A DNA stretch of 18,157 nt from a virus, in the IMG/VR virus record IMGVR_UViG_3300027604_000052. One strand, given 5' to 3'. Below are positions 7,162-13,679 of this stretch, in pieces (positions within the stretch are counted from its first letter, which is position 1; each line of letters begins with the position of its first letter). Below the pieces are notes generated by a model that saw nothing but the letters and a program-made list of their open reading frames with translations, was not told the origin of the DNA and made no database searches. Both the position numbers and the translations under genes were made by a program.

Positions 7162-7485
7162 TCATCGACGTTTTTTGCCCTTGTAGAATCCGAGCGCGAC
7201 GGTCCGGTAATCGAGCGCCGCACGTTTGCCGCGCGCGGTGAGCTTGAAGTAGATCCTCGGACGGCCGCCTCGTTTCGGGTCCTGTTTGCGAACGCGCGAC
7301 GCCAGGAGTCCTTCGTCCTCCATGCTTCGGAGCACGGGGTAGATGCTGCCCTGGTAGAAACGGATTTTCTTGCCCGCCTTGGTGTTCATCTTACGTTTCA
7401 GGCGGTCGAGCATCTCGAGCCCGTAGCACTCGCCCCCGAGGAGCGACTGAAGCACTACTGCCCGACTGGTGAACGGTGATTGCAT
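7162..7485 (-). CDS. PadR-family transcriptional regulator, 107 aa
   Basis: LLGGECYGLEMLDRL...FYQGSIYPVLRSMEDEGLLASRVRKQDPKRGGRPRIYFKLTARG matches the PadR winged-helix consensus (xGYEL...GtLYPaLxrLEeeGlv...GrpRkyYrLTeaG). Confidence 0.85.
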   Translation of the reverse strand: MQSPFTSRAVVLQSLLGGECYGLEMLDRLKRKMNTKAGKKIRFYQGSIYPVLRSMEDEGLLASRVRKQDPKRGGRPRIYFKLTARGKRAALDYRTVALGFYKGKKRR

Positions 7486-7509
7486 CCGACCGACGATAGT
7501 TCCGGATCC

Positions 7510-7526
7510 CGAGGATTGCAACCTCG
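7510..7526 (-). promoter_or_regulatory. Imperfect palindrome CGAGGATTGCAACCTCG about 25 nt upstream of the padR start. Candidate PadR operator overlapping a -35-like TTGCAA-N17-TATCGT
   Basis: Inverted repeat seen in the sequence. Its position relative to padR and the promoter-like spacing are the basis. Confidence 0.35.
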
Positions 7527-7540
7527 AAAACAAAGAAAAC

Positions 7541-7870
7541 TTACGGGCAGACCGCCTGGTCGTAGCCCTCGTCCTTGCACTCATGATGCAGAAGGTGGTC
7601 TTCGCACTTCTCGCCGGTCTTCATGAACATGACCTCGCAGACTTCGTTCCCGACGCGCACATACCTCTTCGCGGGTTTGGGCGGGTTCACGATGACGAGG
7701 ACGACCACGACCCAGATCGGCGATAGGACGATCAGGAGCTGCATCCAGTACGGCATCCAGCGTGGAAAGGCGTCAGGATCGGGCCGATGGCAGAGGCACG
7801 TCTGCTTGCAAGGACAGTTTCGTTCCCTCTCTTCTCCGCGCTCTCGTGCGCGTCTCAGCATACCGAGCAT
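7541..7870 (-). CDS. Hypothetical small membrane protein, 109 aa, with a Cys-rich N-term (CPCKQTCLCH), one transmembrane segment (WMQLLIVLSPIWVVVVLVIV) and a Cys/His-rich C-term
   Basis: Track ORF. GGGGGAGG lies 4-5 nt upstream of the ATG. GC3 is lower in the N-terminal part, so the start could instead be at 7756. Confidence 0.5.
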   Translation of the reverse strand: MLGMLRRARERGEERERNCPCKQTCLCHRPDPDAFPRWMPYWMQLLIVLSPIWVVVVLVIVNPPKPAKRYVRVGNEVCEVMFMKTGEKCEDHLLHHECKDEGYDQAVCP

Positions 7871-7885
7871 CAGACCTCCCCCATC

Positions 7886-8239
7886 TCAATAGGCCCGCTG
7901 CCACTCGCGCAGGTAGCAGCTCGCCTCGGGCGCCGACAGCGCGCTGTCCGTGAGCGGCGTGATGCGGACCACGAGGCCGCCGTCTTGATTTTTGACGTCC
8001 ATCACGAAGTTCATCGCAGCGCTCGTGCGACCGTCCTGGAACTTGATCCAACCCGTCCAAGCGTGGTGCCCACGACCCCGAGCGTAGGTCATGGAGGAAA
8101 ACTTGGCGTCCGGGTGGAAGCACTGGAGGAGGCGGGGCCCGAAACCCTCCGCGTCGTCGGCGTGGACGGACGCCGGCAGCGCGACAACGGCCGCCGCAAG
8201 GAGGAAGGAGACCAGGAACTTTTTGCCGGTGTTCGTCAT
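7886..8239 (-). CDS. Hypothetical secreted protein, 117 aa, with a Sec-type signal peptide (MTNTGKKFLVSFLLAAAVVALPASVHA) and two Cys
   Basis: Track ORF with a clear signal peptide. Its ATG directly follows the stop of the RHH gene (TAAATG). Confidence 0.6.
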   Translation of the reverse strand: MTNTGKKFLVSFLLAAAVVALPASVHADDAEGFGPRLLQCFHPDAKFSSMTYARGRGHHAWTGWIKFQDGRTSAAMNFVMDVKNQDGGLVVRITPLTDSALSAPEASCYLREWQRAY

Positions 8240-8464
8240 TTAGCTTTTGTAGCTACGTTGTAGCCCGCCGTCAAGACCGTCAAGACTCACTTTCAACCGC
8301 ATCGCGTGACGGATCCACTCCGAGACCGTAGTGAAATTAGCTTTCTGTGCCGCGCACTGCCACTTCTCCCACTCGTCCTCCGAGACGCGGACCCTCACGG
8401 TGTGATCGAGGTTCGCTCTCCCGCTCTTGGGCTCGCTCTTGGGCTCTTTAGCCTTCTTCCGCAT
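8240..8464 (-). CDS. Ribbon-helix-helix (CopG/MobC-like) DNA-binding protein, 74 aa
   Basis: TVRVRVSEDEWEKWQCAAQKANFTTVSEWIRHAM fits the RHH pattern (beta-strand xVRLTxEE ... helix ... SEyIRxA). Internal ATG of track ORF 8240..8527. Confidence 0.55.
   Translation of the reverse strand: MRKKAKEPKSEPKSGRANLDHTVRVRVSEDEWEKWQCAAQKANFTTVSEWIRHAMRLKVSLDGLDGGLQRSYKS
8245..8264 (+). repeat. Copy 1 of the 20-bp motif TTTTGTAGCTACGTTGTAGC. It lies inside the 3' end of the RHH gene and immediately upstream of the secreted-protein gene
   Basis: Exact 20-mer shared with 8544..8563. It contains the palindrome GTAGCTAC. Confidence 0.6.
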
Positions 8465-8466
8465 GC

Positions 8467-8486
8467 GCCACAACGTAGCCACAAAA
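8467..8486 (-). repeat. Copy 2 (inverted, variant: TTTTGTGGCTACGTTGTGGC) of the 20-bp motif, ending 2 nt upstream of the RHH start codon
   Basis: 18 of 20 positions match, in the opposite orientation. It overlaps a -10-like TACGTT. Confidence 0.55.
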
Positions 8487-8543
8487 ATACCGCCCCGCAA
8501 GACCCGGCTCGAGATAATTGCCCGCACCCCTGGCGCCCTCAGA

Positions 8544-8563
8544 TTTTGTAGCTACGTTGTAGC
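8544..8563 (+). repeat. Copy 3 of the 20-bp motif TTTTGTAGCTACGTTGTAGC, in the divergent intergenic region about 40 nt upstream of the plus-strand gene
   Basis: Exact copy. Confidence 0.6.
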
Positions 8564-8600
8564 TCGACAGACCGCAAAGCGGTCAGGAAAGACGGAAAAC

Positions 8601-8879
8601 ATGATCATCCAGAAAGCATTCCTCGCCCTCGCCATGGTGGCAGGCGTCTCGGCAGTCACGCTCACCCCCGCCGTCGCGGAGGCTCGAGGCGGCCATGGCG
8701 GTGGCCACTTCAGTGGCGACCATTCCAGCAGCGCCCATTACGGCGCAGGTCACTCTTACGGCGGGCACTACGGCTATCGCACTCCCTACGGCTACGGCTA
8801 CCGTCCGTACTTCAGCGGCTGCGCGTACGTGACGGCGTGGGGTCAGTGCGTCCGGCCAGGCTACCGATACGGCTGGTAA
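8601..8879 (+). CDS. Small secreted Gly/His/Tyr-rich peptide, 92 aa, with a signal peptide (MIIQKAFLALAMVAGVSAVTLTPAVAEA) and a C-terminal CxxxxxxxxC pair
   Basis: Internal ATG of track ORF 8427..8879 with very high GC3. It is the only convincing plus-strand gene. It is divergent from the RHH gene and convergent with the gene at 8965..9369. Confidence 0.65.
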   Translation: MIIQKAFLALAMVAGVSAVTLTPAVAEARGGHGGGHFSGDHSSSAHYGAGHSYGGHYGYRTPYGYGYRPYFSGCAYVTAWGQCVRPGYRYGW

Positions 8880-8964
8880 ATCGACGTCGATCCCAAAGAA
8901 AAAACGCAACAACCGGTGCTCGCCACCCCCTGTTAAGAGTAGAGGCTCTGACGGATAGCTCCGC

Positions 8965-9369
8965 TCATCCCGATTCCTTCTCCGTAACCAACGGCAACTC
9001 GATATTTTTCCGGCGCTCGATCTCGAGGAGGATGGCAGCGTGGGCTCGCACCCAGTCACCCTTGCGCATCAGCCTGCAACTCATGAAGATTGGGTAACCG
9101 TTGACCGAGCGCGGCCCCTGCGCGTCGAGGTACTCGTAGACGACCCCGATGTCCGCGATGTCCTCGGGCGTGTAGCCGTCGAGCGCGCCAAACGCGAGGG
9201 GCATGAAGATCGTCTTCATCATGTCGAGGTCACTCGCGGGTAAATGGTTCGACGTGAAGATCTGCCCGCTCGCGAAGTCGTCCACGAACTTGCGCAGCTC
9301 GTCGTCCGTGAGGCGCACGAGCTTGTGGTCGCCCGGCTTCACCTGCTCTTTGGTCTCGCTCGCGCTCAC
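8965..9369 (-). CDS. Hypothetical protein, 134 aa
   Basis: Track ORF. Its GTG start overlaps the upstream stop (GTGA). Acidic composition typical of coding sequence. Confidence 0.55.
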   Translation of the reverse strand: MSASETKEQVKPGDHKLVRLTDDELRKFVDDFASGQIFTSNHLPASDLDMMKTIFMPLAFGALDGYTPEDIADIGVVYEYLDAQGPRSVNGYPIFMSCRLMRKGDWVRAHAAILLEIERRKNIELPLVTEKESG

Positions 9370-13323: not shown

Positions 13324-13679
13324 CCACGCTCTCTTTCCGGCGCAACGAGGTTCTCCCACGCGCCCTCCTTGTAGATCGTCGCCTCGACGTCCCACGGACC
13401 CGCCGTGTAGCAGCCGCCGGCCACGAAGACCTTCTTGCCCTTGTACTTCACGAGCGCGCCACACGACCCGTTGCCCTGCGCGTAGGCCGTCGCGTGCATC
13501 TTGATGTCGAGGCCGCGACCCTTGTATTTCATCGTGAGCGCCGAGTGCATGGGGCTCGACTCCTTGGCTACGACTTCGCCCTTCTGATCGACGAACTTGA
13601 GCACGCGGAGCATGAGCGCGTCGAGCGGCTTGGCCTCCTCGTCCCCCTCGTCCTCATCACGCATGCGACTCCTCGCCAT
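13320..13679 (-). CDS. Hypothetical protein, 119 aa. The start is uncertain; alternatives are at 13664 or 13613
   Basis: Track ORF. It overlaps the end of the AAA gene by 23 nt if the 13679 start is used. Confidence 0.45.
   Translation of the reverse strand: MARSRMRDEDEGDEEAKPLDALMLRVLKFVDQKGEVVAKESSPMHSALTMKYKGRGLDIKMHATAYAQGNGSCGALVKYKGKKVFVAGGCYTAGPWDVEATIYKEGAWENLVAPERERG

What the first reader, a model, noticed from the sequence alone, without database searches (positions are those of the whole stretch)
8240..8610. Three copies of a 20-bp motif (TTTTGTAGCTACGTTGTAGC) around the RHH gene and its divergent promoter region
Two exact direct copies lie at 8245-8264 and 8544-8563, and one inverted variant at 8467-8486, all within 320 bp. 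The inverted copy ends 2 nt before the RHH start codon and overlaps a -10-like TACGTT. One direct copy lies about 40 nt upstream of the divergent Gly/His/Tyr peptide gene. The other lies inside the RHH C-terminal codons, just before the secreted-protein ATG. The motif contains the palindrome GTAGCTAC and a TGTAGC direct half-site pair. It looks like an operator set for the RHH or PadR repressor, that is, an autoregulated bidirectional switch
Basis: seen in the sequence. Interest (0 to 1): 0.6.

Follow-up and report, generated by a model that had tools for sequence, protein, structure and literature searches.

The report
Three binding sites for small repressor
Three copies of a 20-base sequence around a small regulator gene, in a phage-like element from peat soil, are most likely the sites where that regulator binds to shut off its own gene and two neighbouring secreted-protein genes; this is a familiar kind of control, here unusually well supported by comparison with other genomes.

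Summary
TTTTGTAGCTACGTTGTAGC is exact at 8245-8264 and 8544-8563. A 2-mismatch inverted copy lies at 8467-8486. No shuffle gave a match.

All three sites keep their position and orientation in two diverged relatives, where 85-95% of site columns are invariant against 24-38% in flanking non-coding DNA. The site inside the ribbon-helix-helix (RHH) gene's 3' end is read in a different frame in those relatives, so the constraint is on the DNA.

Relatives that keep the PadR and secreted-protein genes but lack the RHH gene have no motif.

In reference genomes the motif is single-copy, not a dispersed repeat. 56 of 77 hits lie within 60 nt upstream of a DinJ/RelB-type RHH antitoxin gene, and the antitoxin strand arginines (R-x-R) align with R24/R26 of the window protein. 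Two unrelated small RHH genes carry the motif at their promoters.

Best reading: these are RHH operators that overlap the -10 regions of three promoters: its own leaderless gene, the divergent Gly/His/Tyr peptide gene, and tentatively the downstream secreted-protein gene.

It is a new member of a known kind. Binding and transcription starts are inferred, not shown.

The parts
8544..8563 (+). Site A: operator copy facing the Gly/His/Tyr peptide gene (TTTTGTAGCTACGTTGTAGC)
   Evidence: Exact match. Conserved at the same place in L038 and L039, with 17 of 20 columns invariant.
8467..8486 (-). Site B: operator copy over the RHH core promoter (TTTTGTGGCTACGTTGTGGC), ending 2 nt before the RHH ATG
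   Evidence: Conserved in L038 and L039, 17 of 20 columns invariant. The A-B start-to-start spacing is exactly 77 bp in all three lineages.
8245..8264 (+). Site C: operator copy inside the last RHH codons, 5 nt before the ATG of the secreted 117-aa protein gene
   Evidence: 19 of 20 columns invariant. Read in a different reading frame in L038/L039.
8240..8464 (-). RHH gene (74 aa): basic N-tail, strand TVRVRVS, two helices. It is the proposed repressor.
   Evidence: Pfam NikA-like, E 6.8e-5, 23.4 bits, below the cut-off of 27. The family profile hits PDB NikA 2BA3 at E 9.5e-4. hhalign against the DinJ N-domain gives 78.9% probability, with R24/R26 aligned to DinJ R8/R10. The ATG at 8464 is the start conserved in L038/L039.
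8495..8500 (-). Putative -35 of P_RHH (TTGCGG)
   Evidence: 6 of 6 columns invariant in three lineages, within poorly conserved flanks. It lies 17 nt upstream of TACGTT.
8472..8477 (-). Putative -10 of P_RHH (TACGTT; TACGAT in relatives), inside site B and 7 nt before the ATG, which would make the mRNA leaderless
   Evidence: The same geometry is seen at the motif-bearing RHH promoters in L112, L127 and in DinJ-type loci.
8530..8535 (+). Putative weak -35 of P_GHY (CTGGCG; CTAGCA in L038)
   Evidence: It lies 17 nt upstream of TACGTT in site A, and 4 of 6 columns are invariant. This is inference only.
8553..8558 (+). Putative -10 of P_GHY (TACGTT; TACATT in L039), inside site A
   Evidence: Inferred by symmetry with P_RHH.
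8601..8879 (+). Gly/His/Tyr-rich secreted peptide gene (92 aa). It is the only + strand gene here and the proposed target of site A.
   Evidence: Conserved at 74-79% identity, with a signal peptide and a C-x8-C tail, in L038/L039. Absent, together with the RHH gene and the motif, from L040-L042.
8269..8274 (-). Putative -35 of P_sec (TTGACG; TTGACA in relatives), inside the RHH coding sequence
   Evidence: TTGAC is conserved in all three lineages although the reading frames differ. It lies 17 nt upstream of TACAAA.
8246..8251 (-). Putative -10 of P_sec (TACAAA), formed by the end of the site C palindrome plus its A-tract, 6 nt before the ATG at 8239
   Evidence: geometry scan. Tentative, because the hexamer lacks the usual final T.
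7886..8239 (-). Secreted 117-aa protein gene, the proposed target of site C
   Evidence: ORF with a signal peptide. Homologs of 50-76% identity exist in relatives. There is no Shine-Dalgarno sequence; the stop and start are adjacent (TAAATG) or overlap (ATGA).

Best explanation
The three 20-mers are operators for the 74-aa ribbon-helix-helix (RHH) protein encoded between them. Each site is one full 8-bp palindrome, GT(A/G)GCTAC, plus a further GT(A/G)GC half-site 11 bp (one helical turn) away. This layout suits two RHH dimers bound side by side on one face of the DNA, each placing its two-stranded beta ribbon (TVRVRVS, with R24 and R26 facing the bases) in the major groove.

In every site the TAC of the full palindrome begins a -10-like hexamer that lies 17 nt downstream of a -35-like hexamer:
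- Site B: TTGCGG-17-TACGTT-7-ATG. This is the promoter of the RHH gene itself and would give a leaderless mRNA.
- Site A: CTGGCG-17-TACGTT. This faces the divergent Gly/His/Tyr secreted-peptide gene.
- Site C: TTGACG-17-TACAAA-6-ATG. This faces the downstream secreted 117-aa protein gene and lies inside the last RHH codons.

Bound RHH would therefore block RNA polymerase at its own promoter (negative autoregulation) and at one or two neighbouring promoters.

Shown here:
- The sites exist and are conserved.
- The constraint on site C is on the DNA, not the protein.
- The motif goes with the RHH gene.
- The motif recurs at RHH gene promoters elsewhere.

Inferred:
- Binding by the RHH.
- The stoichiometry of binding.
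- The transcription starts.
- The direction of regulation (repression).
For: 1. Non-random occurrence. There are three copies within 320 bp and none elsewhere in 18 kb; 0 of 200 shuffles gave a match.

2. Phylogenetic footprint.
- Contigs at 99-100% identity keep the sites but are uninformative.
- Two diverged syntenic relatives, L038 and L039 (RHH 72-80% identical), keep all three sites in the same place and orientation.
- Invariant columns: site A 17/20, site B 17/20, site C 19/20 and the RHH -35 6/6, against 24-38% in the surrounding non-coding DNA.
- Sites A and C are not kept identical to each other within a lineage (1 difference in L038, 3 in L039), so gene conversion does not explain the conservation.

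3. Site C is read in another frame. The window reads ..GLQRSYKS* and the relatives read ..SYNVATKTK*. The constraint is therefore on the DNA.

4. Co-occurrence with the RHH gene. L040-L042 keep the secreted-protein gene (about 55% identity) and PadR (70% identity) but lack the RHH and peptide genes. They have no GTAGCTAC at all in 11.6 kb.

5. Independent recurrence at RHH genes.
- A scan of 185,579 reference genomes for TTTGTAGCTACRWTGTAGC gave 77 single-copy hits.
- 60 of these loci hold a DinJ homolog, and in 56 the motif lies within 60 nt upstream of its start.
- 45 loci also hold a YafQ homolog.
- 55 of the 56 have an R-x-R strand.
- The sampled proteins are Pfam RelB.
- Two unrelated small NikA-like RHH genes carry the motif on their promoters, together with a second copy facing a divergent gene. 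These are L112 (Pirellulales genome assembled from a metagenome) and L127 (metagenome; 37.8 bits, above the cut-off). Their strands are ILRIRLT and VVRFRLS, and both look leaderless.

6. The window protein is an RHH whose arginines are in register with those of DinJ. The evidence is Pfam NikA-like at E 6.8e-5, a family-profile hit to PDB 2BA3 NikA at E 9.5e-4, and hhalign against the DinJ N-domain at 78.9% probability and E 1.6e-5, with R24/R26 aligned to R8/R10.

7. Promoter geometry.
- In motif-bearing loci of other genomes the central TACAWT lies 17 nt downstream of a TTGNNN hexamer.
- In the window, TTGNNN-16..18-TANNN[T/A]-5..8-ATG/GTG followed by an ORF of at least 60 aa occurs 4 times, against a mean of 0.33 in shuffles.
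- Three of the four are the starts of the RHH, secreted-protein and PadR genes, all with 17-nt spacers.
Against: - No binding or transcript data exist, and the host is unknown.
- The consensus promoter scan found no sigma-70-type promoter in 7800-9100 at its own thresholds.
- The -35 proposed for the peptide gene is poor (CTGGCG).
- The -10 proposed at site C (TACAAA) lacks the conserved final T, so site C may be an auxiliary operator or a roadblock rather than a promoter.
- The Pfam match of the window protein is below the curated cut-off: 23.4 bits against 27.
- The AlphaFold monomer model is poor (pLDDT 60.6) and shows only the two helices.
- Only three diverged lineages carry the module, and their DNA-reading strand is invariant, so no protein-operator co-variation could be seen.
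- Co-occurrence cannot formally separate the RHH from another factor that travels with the cassette.
- A host RHH with the same specificity, such as a DinJ-type antitoxin, could also occupy the sites.
Confidence: 0.78

Rival explanations
1. The PadR-family regulator encoded about 0.8 kb downstream (7485..7162, minus strand) is the protein that binds the motif.
For: PadR is a real DNA-binding regulator in the same gene cluster (Pfam PF03551, E 2.5e-12). It is present in every lineage that carries the motif. The motif contains dyad symmetry.
Against: L040-L042 carry a PadR 70% identical to the window protein but have no motif in 11.6 kb. PadR has its own conserved promoter block without GTAGCTAC, and that block is also conserved in L040. 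In other genomes the motif tracks RHH genes, not PadR genes. From general knowledge, typical PadR operators are inverted repeats of the ATGT-N8-ACAT type, which the motif does not resemble.
Confidence: 0.04
2. The repeats act at the RNA or DNA-structure level. Site B is complementary to sites A and C. In read-through transcripts from upstream a 20-bp stem (A-B with a 57-nt loop, or B-C enclosing the RHH ORF) could act as a processing, attenuation or stabilising element.
For: The arms are 90% complementary. Both window-specific changes in site B are A-to-G and would keep G-U pairs with A and C in RNA. The A-B spacing is exactly conserved.
Against: In L038 and L039 the central base of site B (GAT) mismatches sites A and C (AAC), with no compensating change. 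If the RHH mRNA is leaderless, site B is not in it. The same motif in 56 DinJ-type loci and in L112/L127 is usually a single copy at a promoter with no distant partner. The B-C distance varies (222, 176 and 188 bp).
Confidence: 0.05
3. The repeats are recombination or mobility sites: boundaries of an inserted RHH-plus-peptide cassette (direct repeats A and C flank 279 bp), or an oriT-like site for a NikA-like relaxosome accessory protein.
For: The RHH-plus-peptide module is absent from L040-L042, so it behaves as an insertion between the 134-aa gene and the secreted-protein gene. The best family and PDB matches of the protein are to NikA, an oriT-binding protein. In L127 the RHH lies next to a gene for a 408-aa protein with a SWIM-type zinc-finger motif that looks like a transposase.
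Against: Direct repeats A and C flank only the RHH gene and its promoter. The peptide gene lies outside them, so they do not bound the module that is missing from L040. L040 has no single 'empty-site' copy of the motif. No relaxase or recombinase family was matched among the genes called on the longest related contig (23 kb), although most of those genes match no family at all. The sites coincide with -10/-35-like elements at three gene starts. The motif's main habitat elsewhere is toxin-antitoxin promoters.
Confidence: 0.04
4. The sites are real RHH operators, but their main occupant is a host protein with the same specificity, such as a DinJ-type antitoxin. Host toxin-antitoxin status would then control the module, with the element's own RHH secondary or competing.
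For: The operator sequence is essentially that of DinJ-YafQ-type modules across many phyla. The DNA-reading arginines align.
Against: The host is unknown, and no DinJ or YafQ homolog is present in the window. The strict linkage of the sites to the element's own RHH gene is explained more simply by self-regulation.
Confidence: 0.07

Closest known systems
DinJ-YafQ (RelB/DinJ family) toxin-antitoxin autoregulation
   Same: Both use an RHH DNA-binding domain with an R-x-R strand, and the arginines align in register. The operator is essentially the same sequence, GTAGCTAC-N3-GTAGC, placed over the -10 region of the regulator's own promoter in 56 DinJ-type loci. E. coli dinJ has a degenerate version, TTTGAGCTACAATTCAAGC, over its TACAAT.
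   Different: The window protein has no Pfam RelB match and no phmmer match to DinJ. It lacks the C-terminal toxin-binding region. No YafQ/RelE toxin follows it; a signal-peptide protein does. There are three sites, including one on a divergent promoter and one within the gene.
Arc and Mnt in the immI region of phage P22 (named from general knowledge)
   Same: These are small phage RHH repressors that bind as a dimer of dimers to operators of about 21 bp with subsites about one helical turn apart. They autoregulate and control divergent promoters.
   Different: In P22 one operator serves overlapping divergent promoters. Here separate operators 77 bp apart each cover one promoter, and a third lies in the 3' end of the regulator's coding sequence. 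No sequence relationship to Arc or Mnt was tested or seen.
NikA of plasmid R64 (PDB 2BA3; Pfam PF21983 NikA-like)
   Same: It is the closest solved structure by sequence profile (E 9.5e-4 over the whole RHH fold) and the only Pfam family matched. Both proteins have a basic N-terminal tail ahead of the strand.
   Different: From general knowledge, NikA is a relaxosome accessory protein that binds an oriT repeat. No relaxase family was matched among the genes called on a 23-kb related contig. The sites lie on promoters, and the match is below Pfam's cut-off.
Operators inside coding sequence (lac O2 in lacZ, gal OI in galE) and the leaderless repressor mRNA of lambda cI from P_RM (named from general knowledge)
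   Same: Site C is an operator inside a coding region. The RHH repressor gene appears to be transcribed as a leaderless mRNA from an autoregulated promoter.
   Different: lac and gal auxiliary operators work by DNA looping, which depends on helical phase. Here the B-C distance is not phase-conserved: the palindrome centres are 226, 180 and 192 bp apart (computed). Site C also has promoter-like elements of its own.

Membership tests
Ribbon-helix-helix (RHH, Arc/MetJ/CopG) superfamily DNA-binding protein | N-terminal beta strand of alternating polar and hydrophobic residues, followed by two helices; detectable similarity to proteins with a known RHH fold | tested here: met
   The strand TVRVRVS is followed by two predicted helices, 29-41 and 47-68 (low confidence). 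The family profile hits the NikA RHH domain, PDB 2BA3, at E 9.5e-4 over residues 7-50. hhalign against the DinJ RHH domain gives 78.9% probability and E 1.6e-5.
Pfam PF21983 NikA-like | Score at or above the curated gathering cut-off (27 bits) | tested here: not met
   The window protein scores 23.4 bits (E 6.8e-5); P0002 scores 23.5 and P0003 25.7. The analogous L127 protein passes at 37.8 bits. The window protein is best described as a distant relative.
NikA-type relaxosome accessory protein | Encoded beside a relaxase gene and an oriT, and binds an oriT repeat | tested here: not met
   No relaxase or mobilisation family was matched among the genes called on a 23-kb related contig, though most of them match no family. 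Nor was one matched among the 20 window ORFs scanned here. The sites coincide with gene starts.
RelB/DinJ antitoxin (Pfam PF04221) of a type II toxin-antitoxin module | Match to the RelB/DinJ profile, including the C-terminal toxin-binding region | tested here: not met
   There is no PF04221 match and no phmmer match to E. coli DinJ at E up to 10. Only the RHH core aligns by profile-profile comparison.
RelB/DinJ antitoxin (Pfam PF04221) of a type II toxin-antitoxin module | Cognate RelE/YafQ-type toxin gene immediately downstream | tested here: not met
   The downstream gene encodes a 117-aa protein with a signal peptide and no Pfam family. No YafQ homolog is present in the window.
Autoregulatory operator of a transcriptional repressor | Site overlaps the core promoter of the regulator's own gene | tested here: met
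   This was tested in silico only. Site B spans the spacer, the -10 (TACGTT) and the start region of TTGCGG-17-TACGTT-7-ATG, with the -35 invariant in three lineages.
Autoregulatory operator of a transcriptional repressor | Site conserved in orthologous loci and co-inherited with the regulator | tested here: met
   The sites are conserved in L038 and L039. They are absent where the RHH gene is absent, in L040-L047.
Autoregulatory operator of a transcriptional repressor | Specific binding by the regulator and repression of transcription | not testable with these tools
   This needs gel-shift or footprinting assays and reporter assays.
Dispersed repeat (REP/MITE-like) | Many copies scattered in a genome without a positional link to promoters | tested here: not met
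   There are only three copies in the window and in 19-kb relatives. All 77 genome hits are single-copy per locus (one is a self-overlapping palindrome), and 56 lie at DinJ-type gene starts. The host chromosome itself is unknown and could not be searched.

The most novel reading that the evidence does not exclude
The element's stand-alone RHH has the same DNA specificity as the widespread DinJ-YafQ-type antitoxins: the same GTAGCTAC-N3-GTAGC operator and aligned R-x-R reading strand. A phage-like element could use it to bind and silence, or otherwise disturb, the promoters of host toxin-antitoxin modules of this type, which would be an anti-defence function. Conversely, the host antitoxin could control the element's secreted-protein genes. 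More broadly, one operator 'word' would be shared across two RHH families and many phyla. No paper in the open-access library searched reports this.
Probability: 0.12. Interest if true: 0.6.

Novelty: new member of a known kind. Interest (0 to 1): 0.35.

Why it matters
This gives a small, testable regulatory module from an uncultured peat-soil phage-like element. One 74-aa repressor, three 20-bp operators and up to three promoters, two of them apparently leaderless, control two secreted proteins of unknown function. The comparison also turned up something of wider use. The same operator sequence marks the promoters of DinJ-YafQ-type toxin-antitoxin modules in many phyla. That gives a simple sequence handle for finding such promoters and for asking how an R-x-R beta ribbon reads GTAGCTAC. 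For genome annotation, it is a clear case of a conserved regulatory site hidden inside coding sequence and read in two different frames in relatives.

Tried and rejected
- Megablast of the whole window against the phage and plasmid collections gave no match.
- A scan of viral contigs for the 17-mer core gave 27 single hits. I first took these for chance. On inspection some lie next to DinJ-like genes (L001, L006) and others fall inside ORFs. None is related to the window.
- Ten contigs carrying the identical secreted protein are 99-100% identical to the window and so say nothing about conservation.
- Word-indexed protein searches with the RHH, alone and as a 3-sequence profile, found only three clusters.
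- The exhaustive profile search found 24 remote small RHH proteins, but no genomic context can be fetched for them.
- A single-sequence search of the PDB gave only spurious hits to designed repeat proteins.
- The AlphaFold monomer model was too poor (pLDDT 60.6) to justify a fold search.
- The dual-site pattern scan of metagenome contigs returned only two loci. It missed the window's own clones, so that collection is incomplete for this purpose. One hit (L126) is an unrelated tandem-repeat array.
- The consensus promoter scan found nothing at its thresholds.
- The structural papers on the E. coli DinJ operator are not held in the library, and a full-text search for TGTAGCTACA returned only primer sequences.
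- DNA looping between sites B and C was considered and judged unlikely, because the spacing is not phase-conserved.
- A toxin-antitoxin reading of the RHH plus its downstream gene was rejected, because the downstream protein has a signal peptide and there is no toxin homolog.
Full report
**1. Observation**

- The 20-mer TTTTGTAGCTACGTTGTAGC is exact at 8245-8264 (site C) and 8544-8563 (site A).
- A copy with two A-to-G changes lies inverted at 8467-8486 (site B).
- No other match with up to 3 mismatches exists in the 18,157-bp window, and none appeared in 200 dinucleotide-preserving shuffles.
- The palindrome GTAGCTAC occurs nowhere else in the window.
- The motif is one full palindrome, GTAGCTAC, plus a GTAGC half-site 11 bp further on. 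GCTAC-GTT-GTAGC forms a second, overlapping dyad.

**2. Genes around the sites**

- Almost all genes are on the minus strand.
- On the minus strand the order is: RHH gene (8464..8240, 74 aa), a 117-aa protein with a signal peptide (8239..7886), a 109-aa protein, and a PadR regulator (7485..7162).
- The only plus-strand gene nearby encodes a 92-aa secreted Gly/His/Tyr-rich peptide (8601-8879).
- Site B ends 2 nt before the RHH ATG. Site A ends 37 nt before the peptide ATG. Site C covers the last RHH codons and ends 5 nt before the ATG of the 117-aa gene.
- The element occurs at 99-100% identity in many peat and soil metagenome contigs.
- It carries RtcB, a phosphoribosyltransferase, and an AAA ATPase whose best phage matches are jumbo phages PBS1 and AR9 at 35% identity.
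- It has no close relative in the phage or plasmid collections.
- I treat it as a phage-like element of unknown host.

**3. Conservation**

- The near-identical contigs keep the sites but are uninformative.
- Two diverged syntenic loci exist: L038 (RHH 72% identical) and L039 (80%).
- Both have a divergent 91-aa Gly/His/Tyr peptide gene, the RHH gene and a 121-aa secreted-protein gene. All three sites are at the same places and in the same orientations.
- In the three-way alignment the invariant columns are: site A 17/20, site B 17/20, site C 19/20, and the hexamer TTGCGG upstream of site B 6/6. The other non-coding segments score 24-38%.
- The A-B start-to-start distance is 77 bp in all three lineages, although the spacer sequence has diverged. 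The B-C distance is 222, 176 and 188 bp.
- Sites A and C differ from each other in the relatives (1 difference in L038, 3 in L039), so they are not simply homogenised by gene conversion.
- Site C is translated in different frames..GLQRSYKS* in the window and ..SYNVATKTK* or ..SHNVATKAK* in the relatives. This places the constraint on the DNA rather than on the protein.

**4. Which protein binds**

- More distant relatives, L040-L042, were found through the secreted protein (about 55% identity). They keep that gene and a PadR 70% identical to the window's. Between the 134-aa gene homolog and the secreted-protein gene they have a different 62-aa gene.
- They lack the RHH gene, the peptide gene and every trace of the motif: no GTAGCTAC in 11.6 kb, and no 20-mer match with up to 6 mismatches.
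- The motif therefore travels with the RHH-plus-peptide module and not with PadR.
- PadR has its own conserved upstream block, TTGCAA-17-TATCGT-7-ATG. This block is also conserved in L040 and contains no GTAGCTAC.

**5. Independent evidence from other genomes**

A scan of one genome per species (185,579 species) for TTTGTAGCTACRWTGTAGC gave 77 loci, each with a single site.
- 60 of the 77 loci contain a homolog of E. coli DinJ. In 56 of these the motif lies within 60 nt upstream of its start.
- 45 loci also contain a YafQ homolog. The sampled proteins are Pfam RelB.
- 55 of the 56 have R-x-R in the DNA-reading strand, for example VVRARID.
- In these loci the motif is often the full double palindrome TGTAGCTACAWTGTAGCTACA. 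Its central TACAWT often lies 17 nt downstream of a TTGNNN hexamer, so it doubles as the -10.
- E. coli dinJ carries a degenerate version over its TACAAT.
- Two unrelated small RHH genes of the NikA-like type show the same design as the window:
  - L112, from a Pirellulales genome assembled from a metagenome, has TTGACA-17-TACAAT-6-ATG with the motif over it, and a second copy 58 bp away next to a divergent gene.
  - L127, from a metagenome, has the motif ending 1 nt before the RHH ATG. Next to a divergent 408-aa gene it has a run of three GTRGCTAC units at 11-bp intervals.
  - Their strands are ILRIRLT and VVRFRLS.
- The motif is thus a recurrent operator of RHH proteins with an R-x-R strand.

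**6. The window protein**

- It matches only Pfam NikA-like, at E 6.8e-5 and 23.4 bits, below the cut-off of 27.
- Its family is tiny in the 5.8-billion-protein index, with three clusters. The exhaustive search found 24 remote small RHH proteins.
- A 17-sequence profile hits the NikA RHH domain (PDB 2BA3) at E 9.5e-4.
- Profile-profile comparison with DinJ N-domains gives 78.9% probability and E 1.6e-5. It aligns TVRVRVS with FVRARID, so R24/R26 match the invariant R8/R10.
- The monomer AlphaFold model is poor but shows the two helices.
- The protein is not a DinJ antitoxin. It has no RelB match, no toxin-binding tail and no toxin partner.

**7. Mechanism**

- Site B lies within TTGCGG (8500..8495)-17 nt-TACGTT (8477..8472)-7 nt-ATG (8464). 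This geometry predicts a leaderless RHH mRNA and is conserved in L038 and L039 (TACGAT).
- Site A lies within CTGGCG (8530-8535)-17 nt-TACGTT (8553-8558). In the relatives a short leader with a Shine-Dalgarno sequence (AGGTGA or AGGTGG) follows. The window has an extra hairpin there.
- Site C, in the opposite orientation, lies within TTGACG (8274..8269)-17 nt-TACAAA (8251..8246)-6 nt-ATG (8239). The TTGAC is conserved in all three lineages despite the frame difference.
- A scan of the whole window for TTGNNN-16..18-TANNN[T/A]-5..8-start followed by an ORF of at least 60 aa gives four hits, against a mean of 0.33 in shuffles. Three are exactly the RHH, secreted-protein and PadR starts, all with 17-nt spacers.
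- In each site the TAC of the full palindrome opens the -10 hexamer. RHH bound there would therefore block open-complex formation.
- I conclude that the RHH represses its own promoter and the divergent peptide promoter (fairly confident).
- I also conclude that it probably represses a promoter for the secreted-protein gene (tentative, because TACAAA is a weak -10). The alternatives for site C are a transcriptional roadblock or an auxiliary operator.
- Looping between B and C is not favoured, because their spacing is not phase-conserved.

**8. Rivals**

- PadR as the binder conflicts with L040.
- An RNA stem between the inverted copies conflicts with the uncompensated central mismatch in L038 and L039, and with the single-copy use of the motif elsewhere.
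- A role as recombination or oriT sites conflicts with the lack of an empty-site copy, with no relaxase or recombinase family being matched among the genes called, and with the fit to promoters.
- Occupancy by a host DinJ-type protein cannot be excluded. It is the basis of the novel case.

**9. Verdict**

- This is a new member of a well-known kind: RHH autoregulation through promoter-overlapping operators.
- Two points are worth noting. One operator is kept inside coding sequence across a frame change. The operator word is shared with DinJ-YafQ-type modules in many phyla.
- Binding, stoichiometry, transcription starts and the sign of regulation remain to be shown.

Noticed in passing
genome loci L048-L124 (e.g. 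L048:770-788, L087:348-366, L097:596-614): TTTGTAGCTACRWTGTAGC marks promoters of DinJ-YafQ-type toxin-antitoxin modules in Chlorobi, Proteobacteria, Bacteroidota, Actinobacteria, Firmicutes, Acidobacteria and others. 56 of 77 hits lie within 60 nt upstream of a DinJ homolog, and 45 loci also have a YafQ homolog. A full-text search of open-access papers for TGTAGCTACA found only primer sequences.
   Followed up: partly
window 7493-7521 (minus strand): The PadR gene has its own conserved upstream block with leaderless-type geometry: TTGCAA (7521..7516)-17-TATCGT (7498..7493)-7-ATG (7485). The block is also conserved in L040, which lacks the RHH module, and may contain PadR's own operator around GGTTGCAATCC.
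   Followed up: partly
window 8601-8879 (+): The secreted Gly/His/Tyr-rich peptide (92 aa) has a signal peptide, GH/GY repeats and a conserved C-terminal CAYV.AWGQC..(Y)RYGW. It is 74-79% identical in L038/L039, matches no Pfam or PHROG family, and its function is unknown.
   Followed up: partly
window 8570-8584 (+): A hairpin, GACCGCaaaGCGGTC, lies in the leader of the peptide gene. It is present only in the window lineage. In L038 and L039 the operator lies 12-13 nt from the start codon.
   Followed up: no
window 8420-8443 and 8269-8286 (minus strand): The RHH gene has two window-specific tandem duplications. One is a pair of 12-mers, CCCAAGAGCGAG/CCCAAGAGCGGG, encoding PKSEPKSG in the basic tail. 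The other is a pair of 9-mers, GTCTTGACG x2, encoding the LDGLDG stretch. The second duplicates the -35-like TTGACG upstream of site C.
   Followed up: no
window 8880-8891: A perfect 12-bp palindrome, ATCGACGTCGAT, lies immediately after the stop codon of the peptide gene and is followed by an A-rich run. It is not a classical terminator on either strand.
   Followed up: no
window 1-2295 (minus strand; full gene L028:14604-17216): An 870-aa protein with a major-vault-protein shoulder domain (PF11978) is encoded in this phage-like element. Nearby are RtcB (6464..5040), a phosphoribosyltransferase (4437..3640), a protein with a SWIM-type zinc-finger motif (seen by eye; no family matched), and an AAA ATPase (15501..13657) that is 35% identical to those of jumbo phages PBS1 and AR9.
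   Followed up: no
L127:10131-10221: An unrelated metagenome contig has a NikA-like RHH gene (60 aa) facing a divergent 408-aa gene whose product has a SWIM-type zinc-finger motif and looks like a transposase. Three GTRGCTAC units at 11-bp intervals abut the divergent gene's start, and one more site ends 1 nt before the RHH ATG. This may be an RHH-regulated mobile element.
   Followed up: partly
L126:1300-1870: A tandem-repeat array built from CTGTAGCT(A/G)CACTGTA units matched the dual-site pattern. It appears unrelated to the operator.
   Followed up: no
L040:2188-3177: The RHH-less relative carries an IS1595-family transposase (DDE_Tnp_IS1595) about 2 kb upstream of the secreted-protein gene, so gene content around this region varies between lineages.
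   Followed up: no
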